Below are positions 3,107-13,370 of a stretch of DNA of 64,000 nucleotides, in pieces (within the stretch, counting starts at the first letter, position 1; the number at the start of each line of letters is the position of its first letter). This DNA is from a virus. The notes beneath the pieces are model-generated. The model made no database searches and had not been told where the DNA came from. It saw only the letters and a list, made by a program, of their open reading frames with translations. The stretch is from positions 1 to 64,000 of the IMG/VR virus record IMGVR_UViG_3300036652_000269. The stretch is one strand, 5' to 3'. Both the position numbers and the translations under genes were made by a program.

Positions 3107-5169
3107 CGGGCTTCCTTGATGATGGCCTTGACCAGCTTGGTCGTCGTCGGAACCATGTCCAGCGCCGACATGATCGGGTAGAAGTGCTGACAACTGTGAG
3201 CTTGTTCCTTGCGCCATCTGGCAGTGTCGGCAGGTTTCAAGAAGGTCGGAATGTACCCGTCCAGGTAGTACATGGTCGTAATCACTCCGGCAGTGTTCAG
3301 TTGCTGGGTAATCCGATCTGGGCGAGTGTCATACCATCCGCCATCTGTCATCAAGACAAGCAGCTTGTGCTTGCGCTTGGACAGACCGAAGATGCGACGT
3401 GCATCCTGTAGGACCGCTGTCGGGTCGGTGCCACCATCGTGCTTGAAGAGTCGAAACGCAGTCTTGTTGGTCTTTGCACCGTGTTCGTACATCGACCAGC
3501 CGACGCTGTTATACGCCAGCACGGTGGACGTGACGCCGATGGATTCGAACGCCGCCTTCATCATCCACAGCGACTGGCTGAGTGTGTACATCTCATTCGC
3601 CATAGATCCGCTGATGTCGCAGCAGAACACCACTTCGATGTCCGTGGCGTCGTTGACTCCTTCGTCCCACTGGTCGTGGATCGTTTCCAAATCCCCACCA
3701 CGGATCACCCGCTGCATGTTGATGCGACCCGACGCCTGGTGCGTGTGCCAGCCGGGGTCATGAATCTGAGCCAACTGGGCCAACTGCCGGGCGATGGTAC
3801 GCATCCCCGCCACCATGGTCGGTTCGACAGGTGTCAGCCGGAACTTCAATGGAGGCAAGTTGTTGGACGGACCAAGGTTGCGCATCGACTGCTGCTTCTG
3901 CCTGACGTCATCCTGCACGTCGTCGATGCTTTCGGACTGCTTGACTGCCTCTTCCATCATCTTCCGGATAGCGTCCATCGGTGGCACACCTGGGTCGTTG
4001 CCACCGGTCAGGCTTGTCCCGCTGCCCGGCGTGTCGTTAGCCGGTGTGTCATCTTCACCAACACAAGCACCGTCATCCATATCAGGATCACTGCCCCGAT
4101 AACCAGGAGCAGTGTCACCTTCAGACTGATCGCCAGCATCCACATCACCAGACCCGCTATCCCCCGACCCAGCATCGCTGTCGTCTTCCACGCCAGGATC
4201 GCCAGGAACACCTGCATCATCGCCGTCGCCCTCTTCTGAATCCTGCTTGTCGCCCGGCTTGCTGTCGGGCTTGCCGTTCTGCTTGCTGTCGCCCTGCTTA
4301 TCGTCCTGCTTGTCATCCTGCTGCTGACCACCCCGAGCCGGTTCATCCTTGGCTTCCTTGGCAGCTTCGGCAGCAGCTTCTTCTGCCCACTGCGCAGCGT
4401 CGGCTGCATTGCGCTGTGCCTTGTCGCTCATCGGACGGCCCTTGTTCACTTCTTCGGGACGGCCCTTGTTCTGATCGTTGCTGTGACCGTATGCGTCAGA
4501 CGGCGGGGCGATGGAAGACATAAGTGCACTGAACTCTTTCACCAGTTCGACAGCACGATCCATCTGCGCAGGCAGTGACAGGAACCGGTACTCATCGATC
4601 ACAGCCTTGAAAGCATCCAGCGATGCCTGGTCCATGAACGTGCGTTCCAACATGCGGCGGATGGCAGCGGGCAAGAACGTCCGACCATGGGCCAGCACGA
4701 ACGCGGTCTTGGACTGCGTGTGCAGGTCTTTCAGGCAGTAGCGGGTGAAGATGGACACGAAGTACGGAGCAGTAGACGGGAACAGCCCCGTCAGCATCGT
4801 TTCGATCCGCTGGTCTTCCAGGATGTTGAAATAATGCCAAGTGCCCATGCCCCTGAACTCTGCATACGCACCACCTACCTGTGCCGGTCGCGGCGTGTAC
4901 AAAATGTGAGCAAGTTCGTGGTAGTTCACCCCGGTCAACGCGACGATGCCTTCGACGGTGGACACCGGGGCGTTCAGCTGTGCCGTGTTGAACGTGATGA
5001 CCCTGCCGTCCGACCATGCCGGTGCCGGAGTGCTGTTGCTGACCAACACAACGTCGATGTCCCGTCCGGCCAGGATGCGGTCGGCACGTGCGAAGGTGCT
5101 GGCAAGTGCCTTCAACCGTTCTGTCTGGATGTCCATTGCGGTGAGCAGAGGTTTGATTGCTGTTGTCAT
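3103..5169 (-). CDS. VWA-domain protein (CobT-like) with N-terminal HExxH metallopeptidase-like domain and acidic linker
   Basis: HELAH motif and FNILEDQRIE; MIDAS motif DISGSM, GGT and MTDG; adjacent to a MoxR-type ATPase. Confidence 0.85.
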   Translation of the reverse strand: MTTAIKPLLTAMDIQTERLKALASTFARADRILAGRDIDVVLVSNSTPAPAWSDGRVITFNTAQLNAPVSTVEGIVALTGVNYHELAHILYTPRPAQVGGAYAEFRGMGTWHYFNILEDQRIETMLTGLFPSTAPYFVSIFTRYCLKDLHTQSKTAFVLAHGRTFLPAAIRRMLERTFMDQASLDAFKAVIDEYRFLSLPAQMDRAVELVKEFSALMSSIAPPSDAYGHSNDQNKGRPEEVNKGRPMSDKAQRNAADAAQWAEEAAAEAAKEAKDEPARGGQQQDDKQDDKQGDSKQNGKPDSKPGDKQDSEEGDGDDAGVPGDPGVEDDSDAGSGDSGSGDVDAGDQSEGDTAPGYRGSDPDMDDGACVGEDDTPANDTPGSGTSLTGGNDPGVPPMDAIRKMMEEAVKQSESIDDVQDDVRQKQQSMRNLGPSNNLPPLKFRLTPVEPTMVAGMRTIARQLAQLAQIHDPGWHTHQASGRINMQRVIRGGDLETIHDQWDEGVNDATDIEVVFCCDISGSMANEMYTLSQSLWMMKAAFESIGVTSTVLAYNSVGWSMYEHGAKTNKTAFRLFKHDGGTDPTAVLQDARRIFGLSKRKHKLLVLMTDGGWYDTRPDRITQQLNTAGVITTMYYLDGYIPTFLKPADTARWRKEQAHSCQHFYPIMSALDMVPTTTKLVKAIIKEAR

Positions 5170-7731: not shown

Positions 7732-8370
7732 CTAGTCCATCCGGCTGCCGGGGATCGCGTTGACACCTGCTGCGATCAACACGTCAGCGAACGCACGTGC
7801 GTAGGCCATCTTGCGTTCCAGCGACTGGTTGAAGTCGCGTACCCAGAGTTCGACGCCACCGTGGTAACCCTTGCGGCAGCCCTTGCTGTCCTTCAGATAG
7901 CGTGCGAATGATCCGTTGCCGGGGCGCACCGTGATCCAGGCGAAGCCACAGACGCCATCCATCACCGGTTCGTACCGCTTGATGATGGGAGAACTGTCAT
8001 CGAACGGGTTGGCACGCTGCACCACGTGCATGGGTACCGGCACTGCGTTGTTACCGGCCAGCATCCCTGCATCGTGCGCCACGCTGAACAGGAGTTCACA
8101 CTGGGTCCGGTCCATGGTGGGGCTGGTAGTCGGCTGCACTGGTTCCGGAACCGACACGACCTTCAGGCAGTAGCGGTGGAACATGTTCAGTGGAGTACGC
8201 ACTTGCATCCGCAGGTCGTCCAGCGAATAGACCGTGTTGCGGGCGGCGGACACACTGGTGATTGTCAGTGTCTTGGGCTTGCCGTCCCAGGTGTGGCGTA
8301 GTGCGTGCTGCCACACCATCCCCTTGACCGGAGTGACCTTGTTGTCATTCGTGGTGACGTTGCTAGGCAT
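7732..8370 (-). CDS. conserved phage protein (CGFAW...QSLERKMAYARAFA...SRMD C-terminal domain)
   Basis: C-terminal motif I recall from many phages; GAAGGG RBS. Confidence 0.75.
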   Translation of the reverse strand: MPSNVTTNDNKVTPVKGMVWQHALRHTWDGKPKTLTITSVSAARNTVYSLDDLRMQVRTPLNMFHRYCLKVVSVPEPVQPTTSPTMDRTQCELLFSVAHDAGMLAGNNAVPVPMHVVQRANPFDDSSPIIKRYEPVMDGVCGFAWITVRPGNGSFARYLKDSKGCRKGYHGGVELWVRDFNQSLERKMAYARAFADVLIAAGVNAIPGSRMD

Positions 8371-8421
8371 GTGCGTCTACCCTTCGTGGTTGTGTGATTG
8401 ACAAGCGATGCCGAACGGGAC

Positions 8422-8667
8422 TTACAGACCACCCCGACCTGCGTATTCCAACAGAGCCTTGATGGACAACTGCTGCCCCGGCTTGCGTGGCAGCTTGCGG
8501 ACGACCTTGCGCTGGCCCCGGCTGTCAGTGGTGTACAAGTACAGCCACTGCCGGGTGTGAGCCATGTCGGTGATGCGGTACTGGTTGCCGCCGACACGAA
8601 TGACCCGCCCCACTACTTGGGTAACGGGTATCAGTTCGAAAGCCGCGATGGCGTGACCGTTGAACAC
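8422..8667 (-). CDS. hypothetical protein
   Basis: 81 aa ORF coupled to the upstream stop. Confidence 0.55.
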   Translation of the reverse strand: MFNGHAIAAFELIPVTQVVGRVIRVGGNQYRITDMAHTRQWLYLYTTDSRGQRKVVRKLPRKPGQQLSIKALLEYAGRGGL

Positions 8668-8867
8668 TAGAGTTCGCAGGCACAGGGTGACGTGTGGTGC
8701 CGAACGCAGACCGACCTTGGGGGCTGAAGCACTTTGCGTGCTTTGTGTGTAGCGGTTGGACGGCCATTAGTGGTCTTGCACCGCTGGCCCCTAAGTGCAC
8801 CGCAGAACGGGCACTTGACGTTCGTGGAGTGGTCACGTGAGTAGTTCGCATAACCTGGCTTGGACAT
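8667..8867 (-). CDS. phage zinc-finger protein (CPFCGALRGQRC...HKAR)
   Basis: CxxC-x7-C...H motif; ACGAAGGG RBS; first gene after the long leader. Confidence 0.7.
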   Translation of the reverse strand: MSKPGYANYSRDHSTNVKCPFCGALRGQRCKTTNGRPTATHKARKVLQPPRSVCVRHHTSPCACEL

Positions 8868-8889
8868 GTCGTACATCCCTTCGTGGTTG

Positions 8890-9823
8890 ATGGAGCAGGT
8901 TGGATGACTTGCGTCGTCCTGGCCAGGCACGTACCCGAATGGGTTGGATACGTGCATGACCAGCACGGCAAGGTCATCAGTCTTGCCGTACACGTGATGT
9001 GACGTGGTGCTAACGTCATTGTCTTTTGTAGAGCTGACCCGCTGGCCGATGTGCTTGTGACAGTCAACGCTGTCGAATAGCGACCCGGTTTCTATCGTCG
9101 TCCGCTTTCATACGCCGCTTGTGTAGGGCTACGGGCTTGGGCGCTTGTATTGATCCCGGCGATCACGTAAGTGCCTTCCGGTTTCCTGGTGCTGTCCCCA
9201 AGCTGAAGTGGAGCGATCCCACCTGCTTGCTTCCGCAGTACCGCCCATGATGCTGGCGCGTACTAGTTACATGTGCACGATATCTACCTTGTCCCTGGCG
9301 GGTGGCTTACATCTTGACTATGCGTCTGACAGGCTATCGATTGTCCTGTCCCCGTAGTTCTGAGTCGAACACCTAGCTGCATCGTTTCCGGCACTTGCCG
9401 TAGTTTGATTCCGATGGCACAACGGGCCACCATCGGTTGCACTAGGTTCGCAGGGTCTTCGTCGTTATCGGGTAGGCGCACCCTGCCGTTGCGTTGGATG
9501 CCTTGCATGATTTTGCGTCATGTCTTCCGCCCGATTGTGCTGGGATTCGCTAAGTCCCGGTTCACCACCCCGAGCTACTTTGTTGTTGCCGCTGCTGTTC
9601 ACAACCGCACGGACGTACGTCCAAGTGTGCGGGTAAGCGTGAAGCTGGCCCAAGTAGGAGGTGGCCGATTCCGACCCCTGCTATGTCGTCACTGTCCAGT
9701 TATGAAGGTTCGAAGGTTCGGCGCTTTGAGGGTCTTGCTGCGGACCCTGCGGCCCGACTGCCCGGATTTGAGTTCACCAGGGGCTTCCGTCGTGCCCTAC
9801 CTTGCCCACCGCGCTAGCGGCTT
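8890..9823 (-). ncRNA. candidate large structured non-coding RNA or 5' leader (~0.93 kb)
   Basis: No credible CDS; at least 7 hairpins; promoter directly upstream; boxA-like element inside. Confidence 0.5.
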
Positions 9824-9829
9824 GACGCT

Positions 9830-9859
9830 AGCTTAGTGCAAAAACGACCCAGGTCGCAA
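9830..9859 (-). promoter_or_regulatory. SigA-like leftward promoter TTGCGA-N18-TAAGCT
   Basis: -35 at 9854-9859 and -10 (TANNNT) at 9830-9835 on the minus strand, heading the leftward operon. Confidence 0.6.
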
Positions 9860-9862
9860 TAC

Positions 9863-9972
9863 CAAACCGGACATTCGCCCAAGCACTTTTCGGACATTTC
9901 AGGACAAAATATCGGGGCAAACCAGACATTATAACCCATACAGACCACCGCATACTAGGGCAAACCGGACAT
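9863..9972. repeat. direct repeats of (GGG)CAAACC[GA]GACAT with GGACA core
   Basis: Copies at 9863-9874, 9915-9929 and 9958-9972; cores at 9891-9897 and 9901-9906. Confidence 0.8.
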
Positions 9973-10060
9973 AATGACCCGTCCAGCTGGCCAAACCTGT
10001 CCGCATAGTGGACTGTCGTCCAGATAGTGGACAGCCCAGGATCGCTACGGCATAGGCAGT

Positions 10061-10089
10061 TTCACATCGACAATGTGAACGTGTAGTAT
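10061..10089 (+). promoter_or_regulatory. SigA-like rightward promoter TTCACA-N17-TAGTAT overlapped by the palindrome TTCACAT-N5-ATGTGAA
   Basis: Seen directly; ~50 nt upstream of the GAAAGGT RBS and ATG at 10138. Confidence 0.65.
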
Positions 10090-10137
10090 CTACTCGATAG
10101 CTAGCCCATCCAACCCATCCATCTGAAAGGTAAACTC

Positions 10138-10812
10138 ATGTCTGAAGCCACTGCTGAATCGGCACCCCGTACTGCTCGTAAGCGGGTGGCCAAGAAGGCT
10201 GTCGCGGAGAACACCACCCAGACCACCCCGACCGCTGACACGGATGCAGCCCCGGCACGCAAGGTGGCCCGGAAGGCTGTCAAAAATACAGCTGAGAAGC
10301 CCACCACTCCGGTCAAGAAGACGGCCCGGAAGGCGACCAGCAGACCGGCTGTCAAGAAGACAGCTGAGAAGACTGCGGCCAAGACGACTGTCAAGAAGAC
10401 AGCCACCAAGTCCCCGGCCAAGACGACTGTCAAGAAGACAGCTGCCAAGTCCCCGGCCAAGAAGGCGGCTCCGGCTGTGGAACGGGAACGCAACGAACAC
10501 GGCTACGTCGTCGGCACGGACATGGCTCTGATCAGCGACATGCTGGTGGCCGGTGGCGAAACCCGTGGGGAAGTAACGGACCGCATCCGTGGGTCTATCG
10601 AACCGACAACCCGTGGTGGCCAGCCCAAGAACGTGTCGTCGCTCGTTTCGATGGCCATCAAGGAACTGACTGCACGCGGATACACGCAGGAAGCAACGTG
10701 GCGCTTCATTCCGCCCGTAGCATCTTCGGACAGCGGTCGCAAGTCCACCGCTGCGCCCGCTGCCAAGAAGACCGCCAGGCGTGCGACAGGCCGGGCTAAG
10801 GCAAAGGGCTGA
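10138..10812 (+). CDS. histone-H1/HupB-tail-like Lys/Ala-rich DNA-binding protein with a globular C-terminal domain
   Basis: Repeated VKKTA and PAKK units; RBS and promoter present. Confidence 0.75.
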   Translation: MSEATAESAPRTARKRVAKKAVAENTTQTTPTADTDAAPARKVARKAVKNTAEKPTTPVKKTARKATSRPAVKKTAEKTAAKTTVKKTATKSPAKTTVKKTAAKSPAKKAAPAVERERNEHGYVVGTDMALISDMLVAGGETRGEVTDRIRGSIEPTTRGGQPKNVSSLVSMAIKELTARGYTQEATWRFIPPVASSDSGRKSTAAPAAKKTARRATGRAKAKG

Positions 10813-12217: not shown

Positions 12218-12411
12218 TGCGCTTCTTCCGGCGACTACGTGCACGACATGTCTGCAAGAAAAAGGGGCACGGTCGTCTGGTGCGGGTAGTGGACCAGTAT
12301 CACGCATTACCGGAAATGAACTACCTGACGGCCGTCCCCATGGTCATCGACAGACAGCACTACGAATGTGCTCGGTGTGGGAAACACATCCGACCTGCCG
12401 GGGTGCAGTGA
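12214..12411 (+). CDS. small Cys/His protein (C...GH...CARCGK)
   Basis: Overlaps the helicase stop and the primase start. Confidence 0.65.
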   Translation: MMRFFRRLRARHVCKKKGHGRLVRVVDQYHALPEMNYLTAVPMVIDRQHYECARCGKHIRPAGVQ

Positions 12412-13370
12412 TGGCACGACGGTTCGATGAGTTCGCAGAGAAGTATCTGAACATCAGTCTGCGGTCCGGTCCCGAATACATGGTGCAGTGCGTCTTTCAC
12501 GATGACAGTCGGGCGTCGATGCAGTTCAATGCTGATCGCGGCCTCTTCGTCTGCTTCACCTGCGGCATGGGTGGCGGGATGCGGAAGCTGATGGCCGAGT
12601 TCGGTTTGCGGTCCATCGAAGAATCGTTGGACGTGTCCGACATCCTGGCCCGGCTGGACGAGATCGATCGTCGTGACGGCAAGCCTGCCAAAGACGACCT
12701 GCCGGTGCTACCGGAAAGCTACCTACGCCGGTTCTGCGGGCCGCTGGACTACTGGGAAGACCGGGGGCTGTCGATGGACACCATCAAGCGGTTCGGGCTG
12801 GGCAGCGACCCGCTAGAGACCGAGATAGCCACCATCCCGATCCGCAACGTGTCGGGCGGGCTGTTGGGTGTCATCAAGCGGGATGGTTCTGATGATGCCC
12901 CGATCCGCTACAAGTACCCCAAGGGCTTCAAACGGTCCCGGCACATGTTTGGGTCATGGCTTGTCGAAGAGACAGATTCCAACCTGGCCGTGGTGGTCGA
13001 AGGGTCTGTCGATTCGATGATGGTCTGGGAAGCGGGTCTGGTGGGCCTTGCCCAGTACGGGTCCACCATCGGACGACCTCAGATCAAGTTGATGCTGGAA
13101 CTGGGGATCGAACGAGTCGTCTTGCTGTATGACAACCCGGCCATCGACAAGGCAGGTGCACTGGCTATCCGGTATGCGCTGGGCTGGCACCGGGAAAAGG
13201 ATCGCAAGACCGGCAATGTCACCGAACGCTACGACCCGACTACCGACCTCGCACGGTTCTTCCAGGTCGCCATCGGGCAGTACCCCACCAAGCCGCGTCG
13301 GGTGAAGGACCCCGGTGCCATGACGGTCAGCCAGATTCAAACTGCGGTTGGCTCCGCACTGGCTGCCTGA
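12411..13370 (+). CDS. dnaG: DNA primase (CHC2 zinc finger plus Toprim)
   Basis: CVFHDD...FVCFTCG; VVEGSVD; LLYDN; KDPG. Confidence 0.9.
   Translation: MARRFDEFAEKYLNISLRSGPEYMVQCVFHDDSRASMQFNADRGLFVCFTCGMGGGMRKLMAEFGLRSIEESLDVSDILARLDEIDRRDGKPAKDDLPVLPESYLRRFCGPLDYWEDRGLSMDTIKRFGLGSDPLETEIATIPIRNVSGGLLGVIKRDGSDDAPIRYKYPKGFKRSRHMFGSWLVEETDSNLAVVVEGSVDSMMVWEAGLVGLAQYGSTIGRPQIKLMLELGIERVVLLYDNPAIDKAGALAIRYALGWHREKDRKTGNVTERYDPTTDLARFFQVAIGQYPTKPRRVKDPGAMTVSQIQTAVGSALAA

What the first reader, a model, noticed from the sequence alone, without database searches (positions are those of the whole stretch)
8890..9823. ~0.93 kb promoter-driven, hairpin-dense non-coding transcript (possible novel large phage ncRNA)
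Seen: in an otherwise gene-packed genome there is no credible CDS between the leftward promoter (9830-9859) and the first RBS (~8880). Hairpins lie at 8927-8955, 8965-8989, 9000-9018, 9328-9350, 9411-9436, 9506-9522 and 9605-9632. Established: phages encode large structured RNAs such as GOLLD and ROOL, and antitermination leaders such as put. I could not match it to a known family by eye.
Basis: partly seen in the sequence, partly recalled or inferred. Interest (0 to 1): 0.78.

Follow-up and report, generated by a model that had tools for sequence, protein, structure and literature searches.

The report
Long non-coding early leader in soil phage
A roughly 1-kb gene-free stretch in front of the first leftward early gene of an uncultured soil phage is real and sits where related phages carry structured RNA modules, but here it shows no unusual folding apart from one hairpin cluster, so it is most likely a long untranslated leader or early RNA rather than a proven new large structured RNA.

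Summary
The gene-free stretch is real. Window 8871-10137 is the largest gap in the window and shows no coding signal, no conserved peptides and no ribosome-site-led micro-ORFs. "Hairpin-dense" is not supported. Hairpin count and folding energy of 9031-9830 equal shuffles (z -0.2). Only the 3' hairpin cluster at 8920-9018 stands out (z -4.65). The proposed promoter (9830-9859) is weak (7/12), but the A/T skew flips sign there, and the RNA-sense strand left of it is more U-poor than any of 21 long genes. This fits leftward transcription. There is no Rfam match, no homologous DNA and no RNA data, so covariation cannot be tested for this sequence.

Relatives (GMA6, Chidieberevirus, many IMG/VR contigs) keep a 0.6-1.3 kb gap at the same divergent junction upstream of DnaB/primase, often behind strong leftward sigma70-like promoters. 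Their leaders carry covariation-supported RNA modules: a three-way junction, or a tRNA-like domain. Models of both modules fail to match the window.

Best reading: a long untranslated early leader or ncRNA, resembling by position the Pleft RNA of mycobacteriophages L5/D29. A DNA-level role or a hypervariable spacer remain live rivals.

The parts
8871..9830 (-). ORF-free, U-poor stretch: candidate ~0.95-kb untranslated leader / early non-coding RNA of the leftward operon
   Evidence: No period-3 signal. Negative codon scores. No translated similarity to relatives. Leftward-strand A/T skew is +0.26, above all 21 long genes (max 0.25, mean 0.10). No Rfam match.
8920..9018 (-). Cluster of three adjacent stable hairpins (9000-9018, 8963-8991, 8920-8962) at the 3' end of the leader, 50-150 nt upstream of the first start codon, with no U-tract after it
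   Evidence: MFE -63.1 kcal/mol for 8860-9030. z = -4.65, 0 of 200 shuffles as good. Sliding windows give z -4.1. It is also stable on the + strand (z -3.6), so strand cannot be assigned from energy alone.
9830..9859 (-). Candidate leftward promoter TTGCGA-18 nt-TAAGCT (weak, 7/12)
   Evidence: Read from the sequence. Not reported by the promoter scans. The A/T skew sign change falls at ~9830-9870.
9863..9972 (.). Three direct copies of CAAACCGGACAT (+ strand; spacing 55 and 43 bp): candidate operator or iteron array of the divergent control region
   Evidence: The 0-1 mismatch copies occur only here in 64 kb. A near-identical GTCCGTTTTGCCCC lies at the syntenic place in relative L032.
9999..10032 (.). 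Two direct copies of the partial palindrome GTCCnnATAGTGGAC
   Evidence: Exact copies occur only here.
10061..10089 (+). Rightward sigma70-like promoter TTCACA-17-TAGTAT for the lysine/alanine-rich protein, DnaB and primase genes
   Evidence: 9/12 matches.
8898..8906 (-). CATCCAACC motif ~25-30 nt upstream of the SD of the first leftward gene. Its only other copy in the 89-kb genome is at 10107-10115 (+), at the same distance from the first rightward gene
8667..8869 (-). First leftward gene: small zinc-finger protein (start ATG 8866 with SD GAAGGGA; the longer ORF from GTG 8993 is possible)
   Evidence: PF24623, E 8e-7. Codon statistics for the upstream extension. No homologue supports the extension.
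10138..10812 (+). First rightward gene: Lys/Ala-rich protein with a conserved C-terminal domain, followed by DnaB (10781/10922-12217) and primase (12366-13370)
   Evidence: The C-terminal domain is conserved in L006, L032 and L052.

Best explanation
Window ~8871-9830 is the long untranslated leader, and possibly a processed early non-coding RNA, of the leftward early operon of an uncultured soil actinophage-like virus.

Proposed mechanism:
1. Transcription starts near 9820-9860, at the divergent control region that also drives the rightward replication genes (Lys/Ala-rich protein, DnaB, primase).
2. It runs leftward through ~0.95 kb of U-poor, largely unstructured, untranslated RNA.
3. It meets a cluster of three very stable hairpins (8920-9018) just before the ribosome-binding site of the first gene.
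4. The cluster most likely acts as a processing, stabilising or partial-termination element that separates a leader RNA from the downstream mRNA. This is the position where many relatives carry a tRNA-like domain.

Shown: non-coding status; the hairpin cluster; the composition switch; the syntenic long leaders and RNA modules in relatives.
Inferred: the transcription start; that the RNA accumulates; the role of the hairpin cluster; any trans-acting function.
For: (1) Non-coding status.

(2) Direction and start. The leftward-strand A/T skew is +0.26 to +0.275 across 8871-9830, higher than the sense strand of all 21 long genes (mean 0.10).

(3) No promoter-like site lies between the hairpin cluster and ATG 8866, so the first gene must be read from upstream, through the leader.

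(4) Synteny.
- GenBank-annotated relatives leave 1055-1175 bp unannotated at the same divergent junction: GMA6, ChisanaKitsune, Gray, FlyingTortilla.
- A crude gene caller finds 0.7-1.5 kb gaps upstream of DnaB in most IMG/VR relatives, including 40-45% G+C genomes.
- Strong leftward sigma70-like promoters (10-11 of 12) precede 616-824 nt of non-coding sequence in GMA6, L009, L010, L013, L016, L018 and ChisanaKitsune.

(5) RNA-level function of these leaders in relatives.
- A three-way-junction module has 98.7% of cells paired and 23 of 40 pairs with compensatory change, against 29-59% paired in slid controls. It has invariant G.U pairs that work only on the leftward strand.
- A tRNA-like domain sits ~80-120 nt upstream of the first gene in L010, L016 and L024. 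The same domain recurs in L018, L029, L031 and L036. L025 is a moderate model hit (25.5 bits). L035 and L019 are weak model hits that were read by eye. It reaches Rfam tmRNA 64.7 bits in L010/L011. Pairing is 97% against 33-45% in slid controls.

(6) Precedent. L5, D29 and StarStuff make abundant, stable, host-toxic non-coding RNAs from the ~500 bp between the early promoter Pleft and the first early gene (PMC5712189).
Against: - Folding of 9031-9830 is no better than shuffles (z -0.2), and hairpin counts are at chance.
- The promoter is weak (7/12) and untested.
- No sequence or motif of the window's leader is shared with any relative.
- Neither RNA module of the relatives is present: R1/R2 score 7.3 bits or less, and R3 gives only trivial hairpins.
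- No tmRNA or tRNA-like element is found in the whole genome.
- The hairpin cluster is also stable on the other strand and may lie inside an N-terminally extended CDS.
- The gap is short in at least one annotated relative: DalanDe, 404 bp.
- Gap lengths in IMG/VR relatives rest on a crude gene caller.
Confidence: 0.5

Rival explanations
1. The stretch acts mainly as DNA. It would be part of an extended replication origin or control region next to the DnaB/primase genes, for example a transcription-activated origin in which a leftward transcript opens the duplex, or spacing and binding DNA for phage regulators.
For: The region abuts iteron-like repeats found nowhere else in the window: 3 x CAAACCGGACAT and 2 x GTCCnnATAGTGGAC at 9863-10032. 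It lies at the strand switch directly upstream of the helicase and primase genes. The position next to DnaB is kept in relatives. Low-G+C relatives have repeated elements inside their gaps.
Against: The repeats lie outside the 8871-9830 span, which has no repeats of its own and no A+T-rich unwinding tract (G+C 0.54-0.61). The strong strand asymmetry of composition, and the G.U-containing, strand-specific structures in relatives, point to RNA. No cumulative G/C-skew turning point is visible here.
Confidence: 0.2
2. The stretch has no function of its own. It would be a hypervariable spacer or the decayed remains of early genes in a fast-evolving part of the genome, transcribed only in passing.
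For: No sequence conservation with any relative. The neighbouring leftward early genes also lack homologues in relatives. Folding equals shuffles. Both structured modules of relatives are absent.
Against: Phage genomes are compact, and this is by far the largest gap in the window. A gap of similar size persists at the same place across relatives whose DnaB is only 36-50% identical and whose G+C ranges from 40 to 62%. Its A/T skew exceeds that of genes, and there are no coding remnants such as residual period-3 signal or translated matches.
Confidence: 0.2
3. The region encodes one or more small or unusual proteins missed by ORF scanning.
For: Minus-strand ORFs of 74, 62 and 39 codons exist. 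The stretch 8870-8993 has gene-like codon statistics, in frame with the zinc-finger gene.
Against: No period-3 signal across 9000-10100. No SD-led start apart from a weak 24-codon GTG ORF. No translated similarity to any relative. The exhaustive protein search gave no support for the N-terminal extension.
Confidence: 0.07

Closest known systems
Pleft-proximal non-coding RNAs of Cluster A mycobacteriophages (L5, D29, StarStuff; Dedrick et al. 2017, PMC5712189)
   Same: An actinophage non-coding stretch lying between an early promoter and the first early gene, with no conserved ORFs and poor sequence conservation. There it yields the most abundant, stable, host-toxic early transcripts.
   Different: This stretch is about twice as long (~950 against ~500 nt). 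It sits at an internal divergent junction next to replication genes, not at the genome end. The phage group is apparently lytic, with no repressor/stoperator system. There is no sequence similarity. Expression is unknown here.
   Same: Same genomic position (divergent junction upstream of DnaB/primase), same leftward orientation, similar length, and a structured element close to the first gene.
   Different: The window has neither module and no strong sigma70-like leftward promoter. Its only outstanding structure is a hairpin cluster.
   Same: Non-coding, phage-borne, several hundred nucleotides long, and (for put) placed just downstream of an early promoter.
   Different: No Rfam covariance model scores above noise. 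There is no excess folding energy over most of the length. No covariation data exist. These are resemblances of category only.

Membership tests
Any Rfam 15 family (incl. GOLLD, ROOL, tmRNA, tRNA, group I/II introns, riboswitches) | Covariance-model score at or near the family's gathering threshold | tested here: not met
   An E-value scan of 8000-10800 on both strands gave only two chance hits at 15-16 bits, E 5-7. The tmRNA model found nothing in the whole 89-kb genome. ARAGORN found no tRNA or tmRNA.
Three-way-junction RNA module of GMA6/Chidieberevirus leaders (defined here) | P1-P2-P3 junction with the conserved strands GUACUGCGA and GCACGCGAGCU, detectable with models R1/R2 | tested here: not met
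   R1 and R2 recover GMA6 (40 bits), the second copies (20-30 bits) and L009 (20 bits). In the window they give 7.3 bits or less with filters off.
tRNA-like domain at the 3' end of relatives' leaders (defined here; Rfam tmRNA-positive in L010/L011) | 7-bp acceptor stem plus T arm with GGUUCRANUCC loop, followed by A/C and CAA/CUA | tested here: not met
   The T-loop pattern is absent from the window. R3 with filters off gives only simple hairpins of 11.4 bits or less, with no T arm.
Early-promoter leader ncRNA of the L5/D29 kind (a functional class, not a sequence family) | Non-coding stretch between the early promoter and the first early gene | tested here: inconclusive
   Non-coding status and position upstream of the first leftward gene are met. 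The promoter is only inferred, from a 7/12 match plus the skew switch.
Early-promoter leader ncRNA of the L5/D29 kind | Abundant, stable transcript during early infection; toxicity to the host | not testable with these tools
   The virus is uncultured. Only three soil DNA runs hold the sequence.
Phage replication origin | Iterons plus an A+T-rich unwinding element next to replication genes | tested here: inconclusive
   Iteron-like repeats exist at 9863-10032, outside the reported span. There are no repeats and no A+T-rich tract within 8871-9830.

The most novel reading that the evidence does not exclude
A broad clade of GMA6-like phages, spanning 40-62% G+C, keeps a dedicated ~0.6-1 kb early non-coding RNA gene at the junction with its replication genes. 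Its structured modules are interchangeable: a tRNA-like domain, a three-way junction, or, in this window, a hairpin cluster on a U-poor body of unknown fold. On this reading the window's RNA is a new, sequence-unrelated member that accumulates after processing at the hairpin cluster and acts in trans on the host, as the L5/D29 early RNAs appear to do.
Probability: 0.3. Interest if true: 0.7.

Novelty: new variant of a known kind. Interest (0 to 1): 0.48.

Why it matters
Long non-coding early leaders are among the most highly expressed and least understood parts of actinophage genomes. The L5/D29 RNAs are abundant and toxic to the host, and their function is unknown.

If this stretch is such an RNA, and a whole clade keeps one at a fixed place with swappable structured modules, it would point to a general RNA-based early function that is not yet described, such as host takeover, control of processing, or priming of replication. 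It would also give cultured Gordonia phages (GMA6, Chidiebere group) as a system to test it.

For this particular window the evidence stays indirect. The safe conclusion is a confirmed large non-coding region with one unusually stable hairpin cluster.

Tried and rejected
- Rfam scans of the window and of 21 related loci found nothing in the window.
- blastn of the region against 50,697 phage records: no match.
- All-against-all blastn and shared k-mers between the window's gap and 23 syntenic gaps found nothing involving the window.
- The search for related loci with DnaB alone found no close relative. With a DnaB alignment it returned 79 loci, the best at 50% identity.
- The search for homologous proteins showed that the closest DnaB relatives (52-55%) sit on Logan contigs.
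- An exact 14-mer scan of IMG/VR with the operator repeat gave only chance hits.
- Sequencing runs: no RNA holder listed. Three soil DNA runs hold the stretch with zero differences, so they give no population variation to test selection.
- Zinc-finger ORF homology, to settle the left boundary: no phage tblastn hit, no word-index hit, and exhaustive HMMER gave only zinc-finger-domain or repetitive-protein hits, none covering the N-terminal extension.
- MAFFT plus RNAalifold misaligned the module in relatives. This was replaced by iterative covariance models.
- Considered and dropped: pairing of the AUCCAACC motif with the 16S rRNA 3' end. It lies on the wrong side of the SD, and the rRNA partner is in a helix (my own knowledge, not tested).
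- Papers on GMA6 and Gordonia phages do not mention the gap.

Full report
CONTEXT

The window is the first 64 kb of an 89,278-bp IMG/VR virus record of about 60% G+C. Three soil metagenome runs hold it without a single difference.

By DnaB similarity its nearest named relatives are Brevibacterium phage Cantare (46%), Gordonia phage GMA6 (44%) and the Chidieberevirus group (42-43%). The closest proteins anywhere are 52-55% identical. No close relative exists in any searchable collection.

The finding lies at a divergent junction.
- To the left, leftward genes start with a small zinc-finger protein (PF24623). Its start is ATG 8866, with SD GAAGGGA.
- To the right, rightward genes are a Lys/Ala-rich protein (10138-10812), DnaB and a DnaG-type primase.

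The absence of genes is real.
- A crude codon-model gene caller makes 8668-10137 the largest gap in the window.
- The period-3 signal over 9000-10100 is 0.3-1.9, against a genome median of 4.8.
- Best-frame codon scores are negative almost throughout.
- None of 43 stop-to-stop segments in six frames matches any of about 80 related loci, while a flanking protein does match.
- No SD-led small ORF stands out.

Together they are exceptional: z -4.65, and none of 200 shuffles folds as well.

The rest of the description does not hold.
- The hairpin count equals chance.
- 9031-9830 folds like its shuffles, z -0.2.
- Sliding windows stay between -1.8 and +0.9.
- The whole-span z of -1.93 on the minus strand, against 0.0 on the plus strand, comes largely from the 3' cluster.

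The proposed promoter (TTGCGA-18-TAAGCT, 9859-9830) is a 7/12 match that neither scan reports.

EVIDENCE FOR A LEFTWARD TRANSCRIPTION UNIT

The leftward strand of 8871-9830 has an A/T skew of +0.26 to +0.275, which corresponds to a U-poor RNA (my estimate from the skew and G+C: roughly 16% U). This is more than the sense strand of any of 21 long genes (mean 0.10, maximum 0.25). The skew flips to -0.24 to the right of 9830.

No promoter-like site lies between the hairpin cluster and the first start codon. The first gene must therefore be read through the leader.

The right-hand 270 bp (9860-10137) is a separate control region. It holds three copies of a 12-mer, two copies of a 15-mer partial palindrome, and a 9/12 rightward promoter.

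RELATIVES

Curated GenBank annotations leave 1055-1175 bp empty at the same junction in GMA6, ChisanaKitsune, Gray and FlyingTortilla. The gap is 662 bp in Cantare and only 404 bp in DalanDe.

Among 79 IMG/VR loci found with a DnaB alignment, most of those with enough upstream sequence show a 0.7-1.5 kb gap upstream of DnaB. This includes genomes of 40-45% G+C (crude caller).

Strong leftward sigma70-like promoters (10-11 of 12) sit 616-824 nt upstream of the first leftward gene in GMA6, L009, L010, L013, L016, L018 and ChisanaKitsune.

These leaders are not alignable to the window, and only subgroups align with each other. Even so, they contain RNA structure.

(a) Three-way junction. In GMA6, L009 and the Chidiebere group (two tandem copies there), a roughly 110-nt three-way junction has the invariant strands GUACUGCGA and GCACGCGAGCU.
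- Three lineages fold independently into the same architecture.
- On a model-guided alignment, 98.7% of cells pair and 23 of 40 pairs show compensatory change. Slid controls pair at 29-59%.
- Invariant G.U pairs exist only on the leftward strand.
- It has no Rfam match.

(b) tRNA-like domain. In L010, L016 and L024 it sits about 80-120 nt upstream of the first gene. It has a 7-bp acceptor stem, a T arm with a GGUUCRANUCC loop and a variable central hairpin, followed by A/C and CAA/CUA.
- The same domain recurs in L011, L018, L029, L031 and L036.
- L025 is a moderate model hit (25.5 bits). L035, L019 and L010 are weak hits of model R3 (13-16 bits). L054 is only a partial, very weak hit. These were read by eye.
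- In L010/L011 it scores 64.7 bits on the Rfam tmRNA model (gathering score 47). It consists of the tRNA-like domain alone and has a G3:U70 pair.
- Across ten copies 97% of cells pair, against 33-45% in slid controls.

The region class therefore works at the RNA level in relatives.

DOES THE WINDOW CARRY THESE MODULES?

No.
- Models R1 and R2 (three-way junction) give 7.3 bits or less with filters off.
- Model R3 (tRNA-like domain) gives only plain hairpins.
- The T-loop pattern and tmRNA are absent from the whole genome.

Calibration matters here. The covariation-supported modules of ChisanaKitsune gave sliding z-scores of only -2.7/-1.7 and about 0. A z near zero in the window therefore cannot exclude structure at this G+C content.

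MOST LIKELY MECHANISM

1. Transcription starts near 9820-9860.
2. It runs through about 0.95 kb of U-poor untranslated RNA.
3. It meets the triple hairpin immediately before the first ribosome-binding site.

The hairpin cluster occupies the place of the tRNA-like domain of relatives. A tRNA-like domain would be a natural RNase P substrate (my inference). I therefore infer a processing, stabilising or attenuating role that separates a leader RNA from the mRNA.

The nearest documented analogue is the roughly 500-nt Pleft leader of L5, D29 and StarStuff. It gives the most abundant, stable and host-toxic early RNAs of those phages, and its function is unknown (PMC5712189).

What is shown is anatomy, composition and comparative context. 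The transcript, its stability and any trans-acting function are inferred.

RIVALS

- A DNA-level role, as an origin or control region next to DnaB/primase. The adjacent iteron-like repeats make this plausible. It is weakened by the lack of repeats or an A+T-rich tract inside the span, and by the strand-specific features.
- A functionless hypervariable spacer. Total lack of conservation and chance-level folding support this. It is weakened by the persistence of the gap across a deep clade and by the extreme skew.
- Hidden small proteins. This is unlikely.

VERDICT

The stretch is a real, unusually long non-coding region with one outstanding hairpin cluster. It is best read as a new variant of the actinophage early non-coding leader.

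It is not shown to be a large structured RNA.

Noticed in passing
L003:3364-3465(-) (Gordonia phage GMA6); L004:3352-3464(-) and 3187-3276(-) (ChisanaKitsune); L085, L086; L009:1146-1246(-): A ~110-nt three-way-junction RNA module not in Rfam, with invariant strands GUACUGCGA and GCACGCGAGCU. It lies in the non-coding leader upstream of the leftward early genes and is duplicated in tandem in Chidiebereviruses. On the model-guided alignment 98.7% of cells pair and 23 of 40 pairs have compensatory change. The alignment has only about 3 independent lineages and was fitted to the model.
   Followed up: yes
L010:5781-5862(-), L011:4985-5066(-), L016:5909-5970(-), L018:3031-3092(-), L024:2353-2405(-), L029:386-438(-), L031:2787-2842(-), L036:2226-2278(-), L025:5575-5625(-); weaker in L035, L019, L054: A tRNA-like domain without an anticodon arm (acceptor stem plus T arm, then A/C and CAA/CUA). 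In L010, L016 and L024 it sits ~80-120 nt upstream of the first leftward gene. The L010/L011 copy scores 64.7 bits on the Rfam tmRNA model as a tRNA-like domain alone, and it has G3:U70. ARAGORN misses all copies. In L052 a true tRNA (50.6 bits) lies in the region upstream of DnaB on the same strand. It could be a processing signal or a decoy.
   Followed up: yes
window 8898-8906(-) and 10107-10115(+): CATCCAACC occurs exactly twice in the 89-kb genome, once on each strand. Each copy lies ~25-30 nt upstream of the SD of the first gene of one of the two divergent operons, and a CCAUC follows in both. A third AUCCAACC forms the loop of the largest leader hairpin (8942-8949). It may be a shared translational operator.
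   Followed up: partly
window 9863-9972 and L032:4953-4962(-): The window's triple 12-mer (ATGTCCGGTTTG on the minus strand, followed by CCC) has a near-identical single copy, GTCCGTTTTGCCCC, at the syntenic place in relative L032 (DnaB 50% identical). This is the only motif shared between the two control regions.
   Followed up: partly
L032:3576-4809(-): GGACTTGC occurs 5 times exactly and 3 times with one mismatch, all on the leftward strand, within the ~1.5-kb gap of L032. There are only 2 other exact copies in the 15-kb locus. No equivalent repeat is seen in the window.
   Followed up: partly
window 8870-8993(-): The stretch upstream of the zinc-finger gene, in frame from GTG 8993, has gene-like codon score (0.19 per codon) and G+C by codon position (.61/.37/.72). 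The annotated zinc-finger core scores negative. There is no SD and no homologue support. If translated, two of the three hairpins would lie inside a CDS.
   Followed up: partly
window 10061-10089(+): The rightward promoter's -35 region overlaps an inverted repeat, TTCACAT-CGACA-ATGTGAA. This may be an operator (read; promoter).
   Followed up: no
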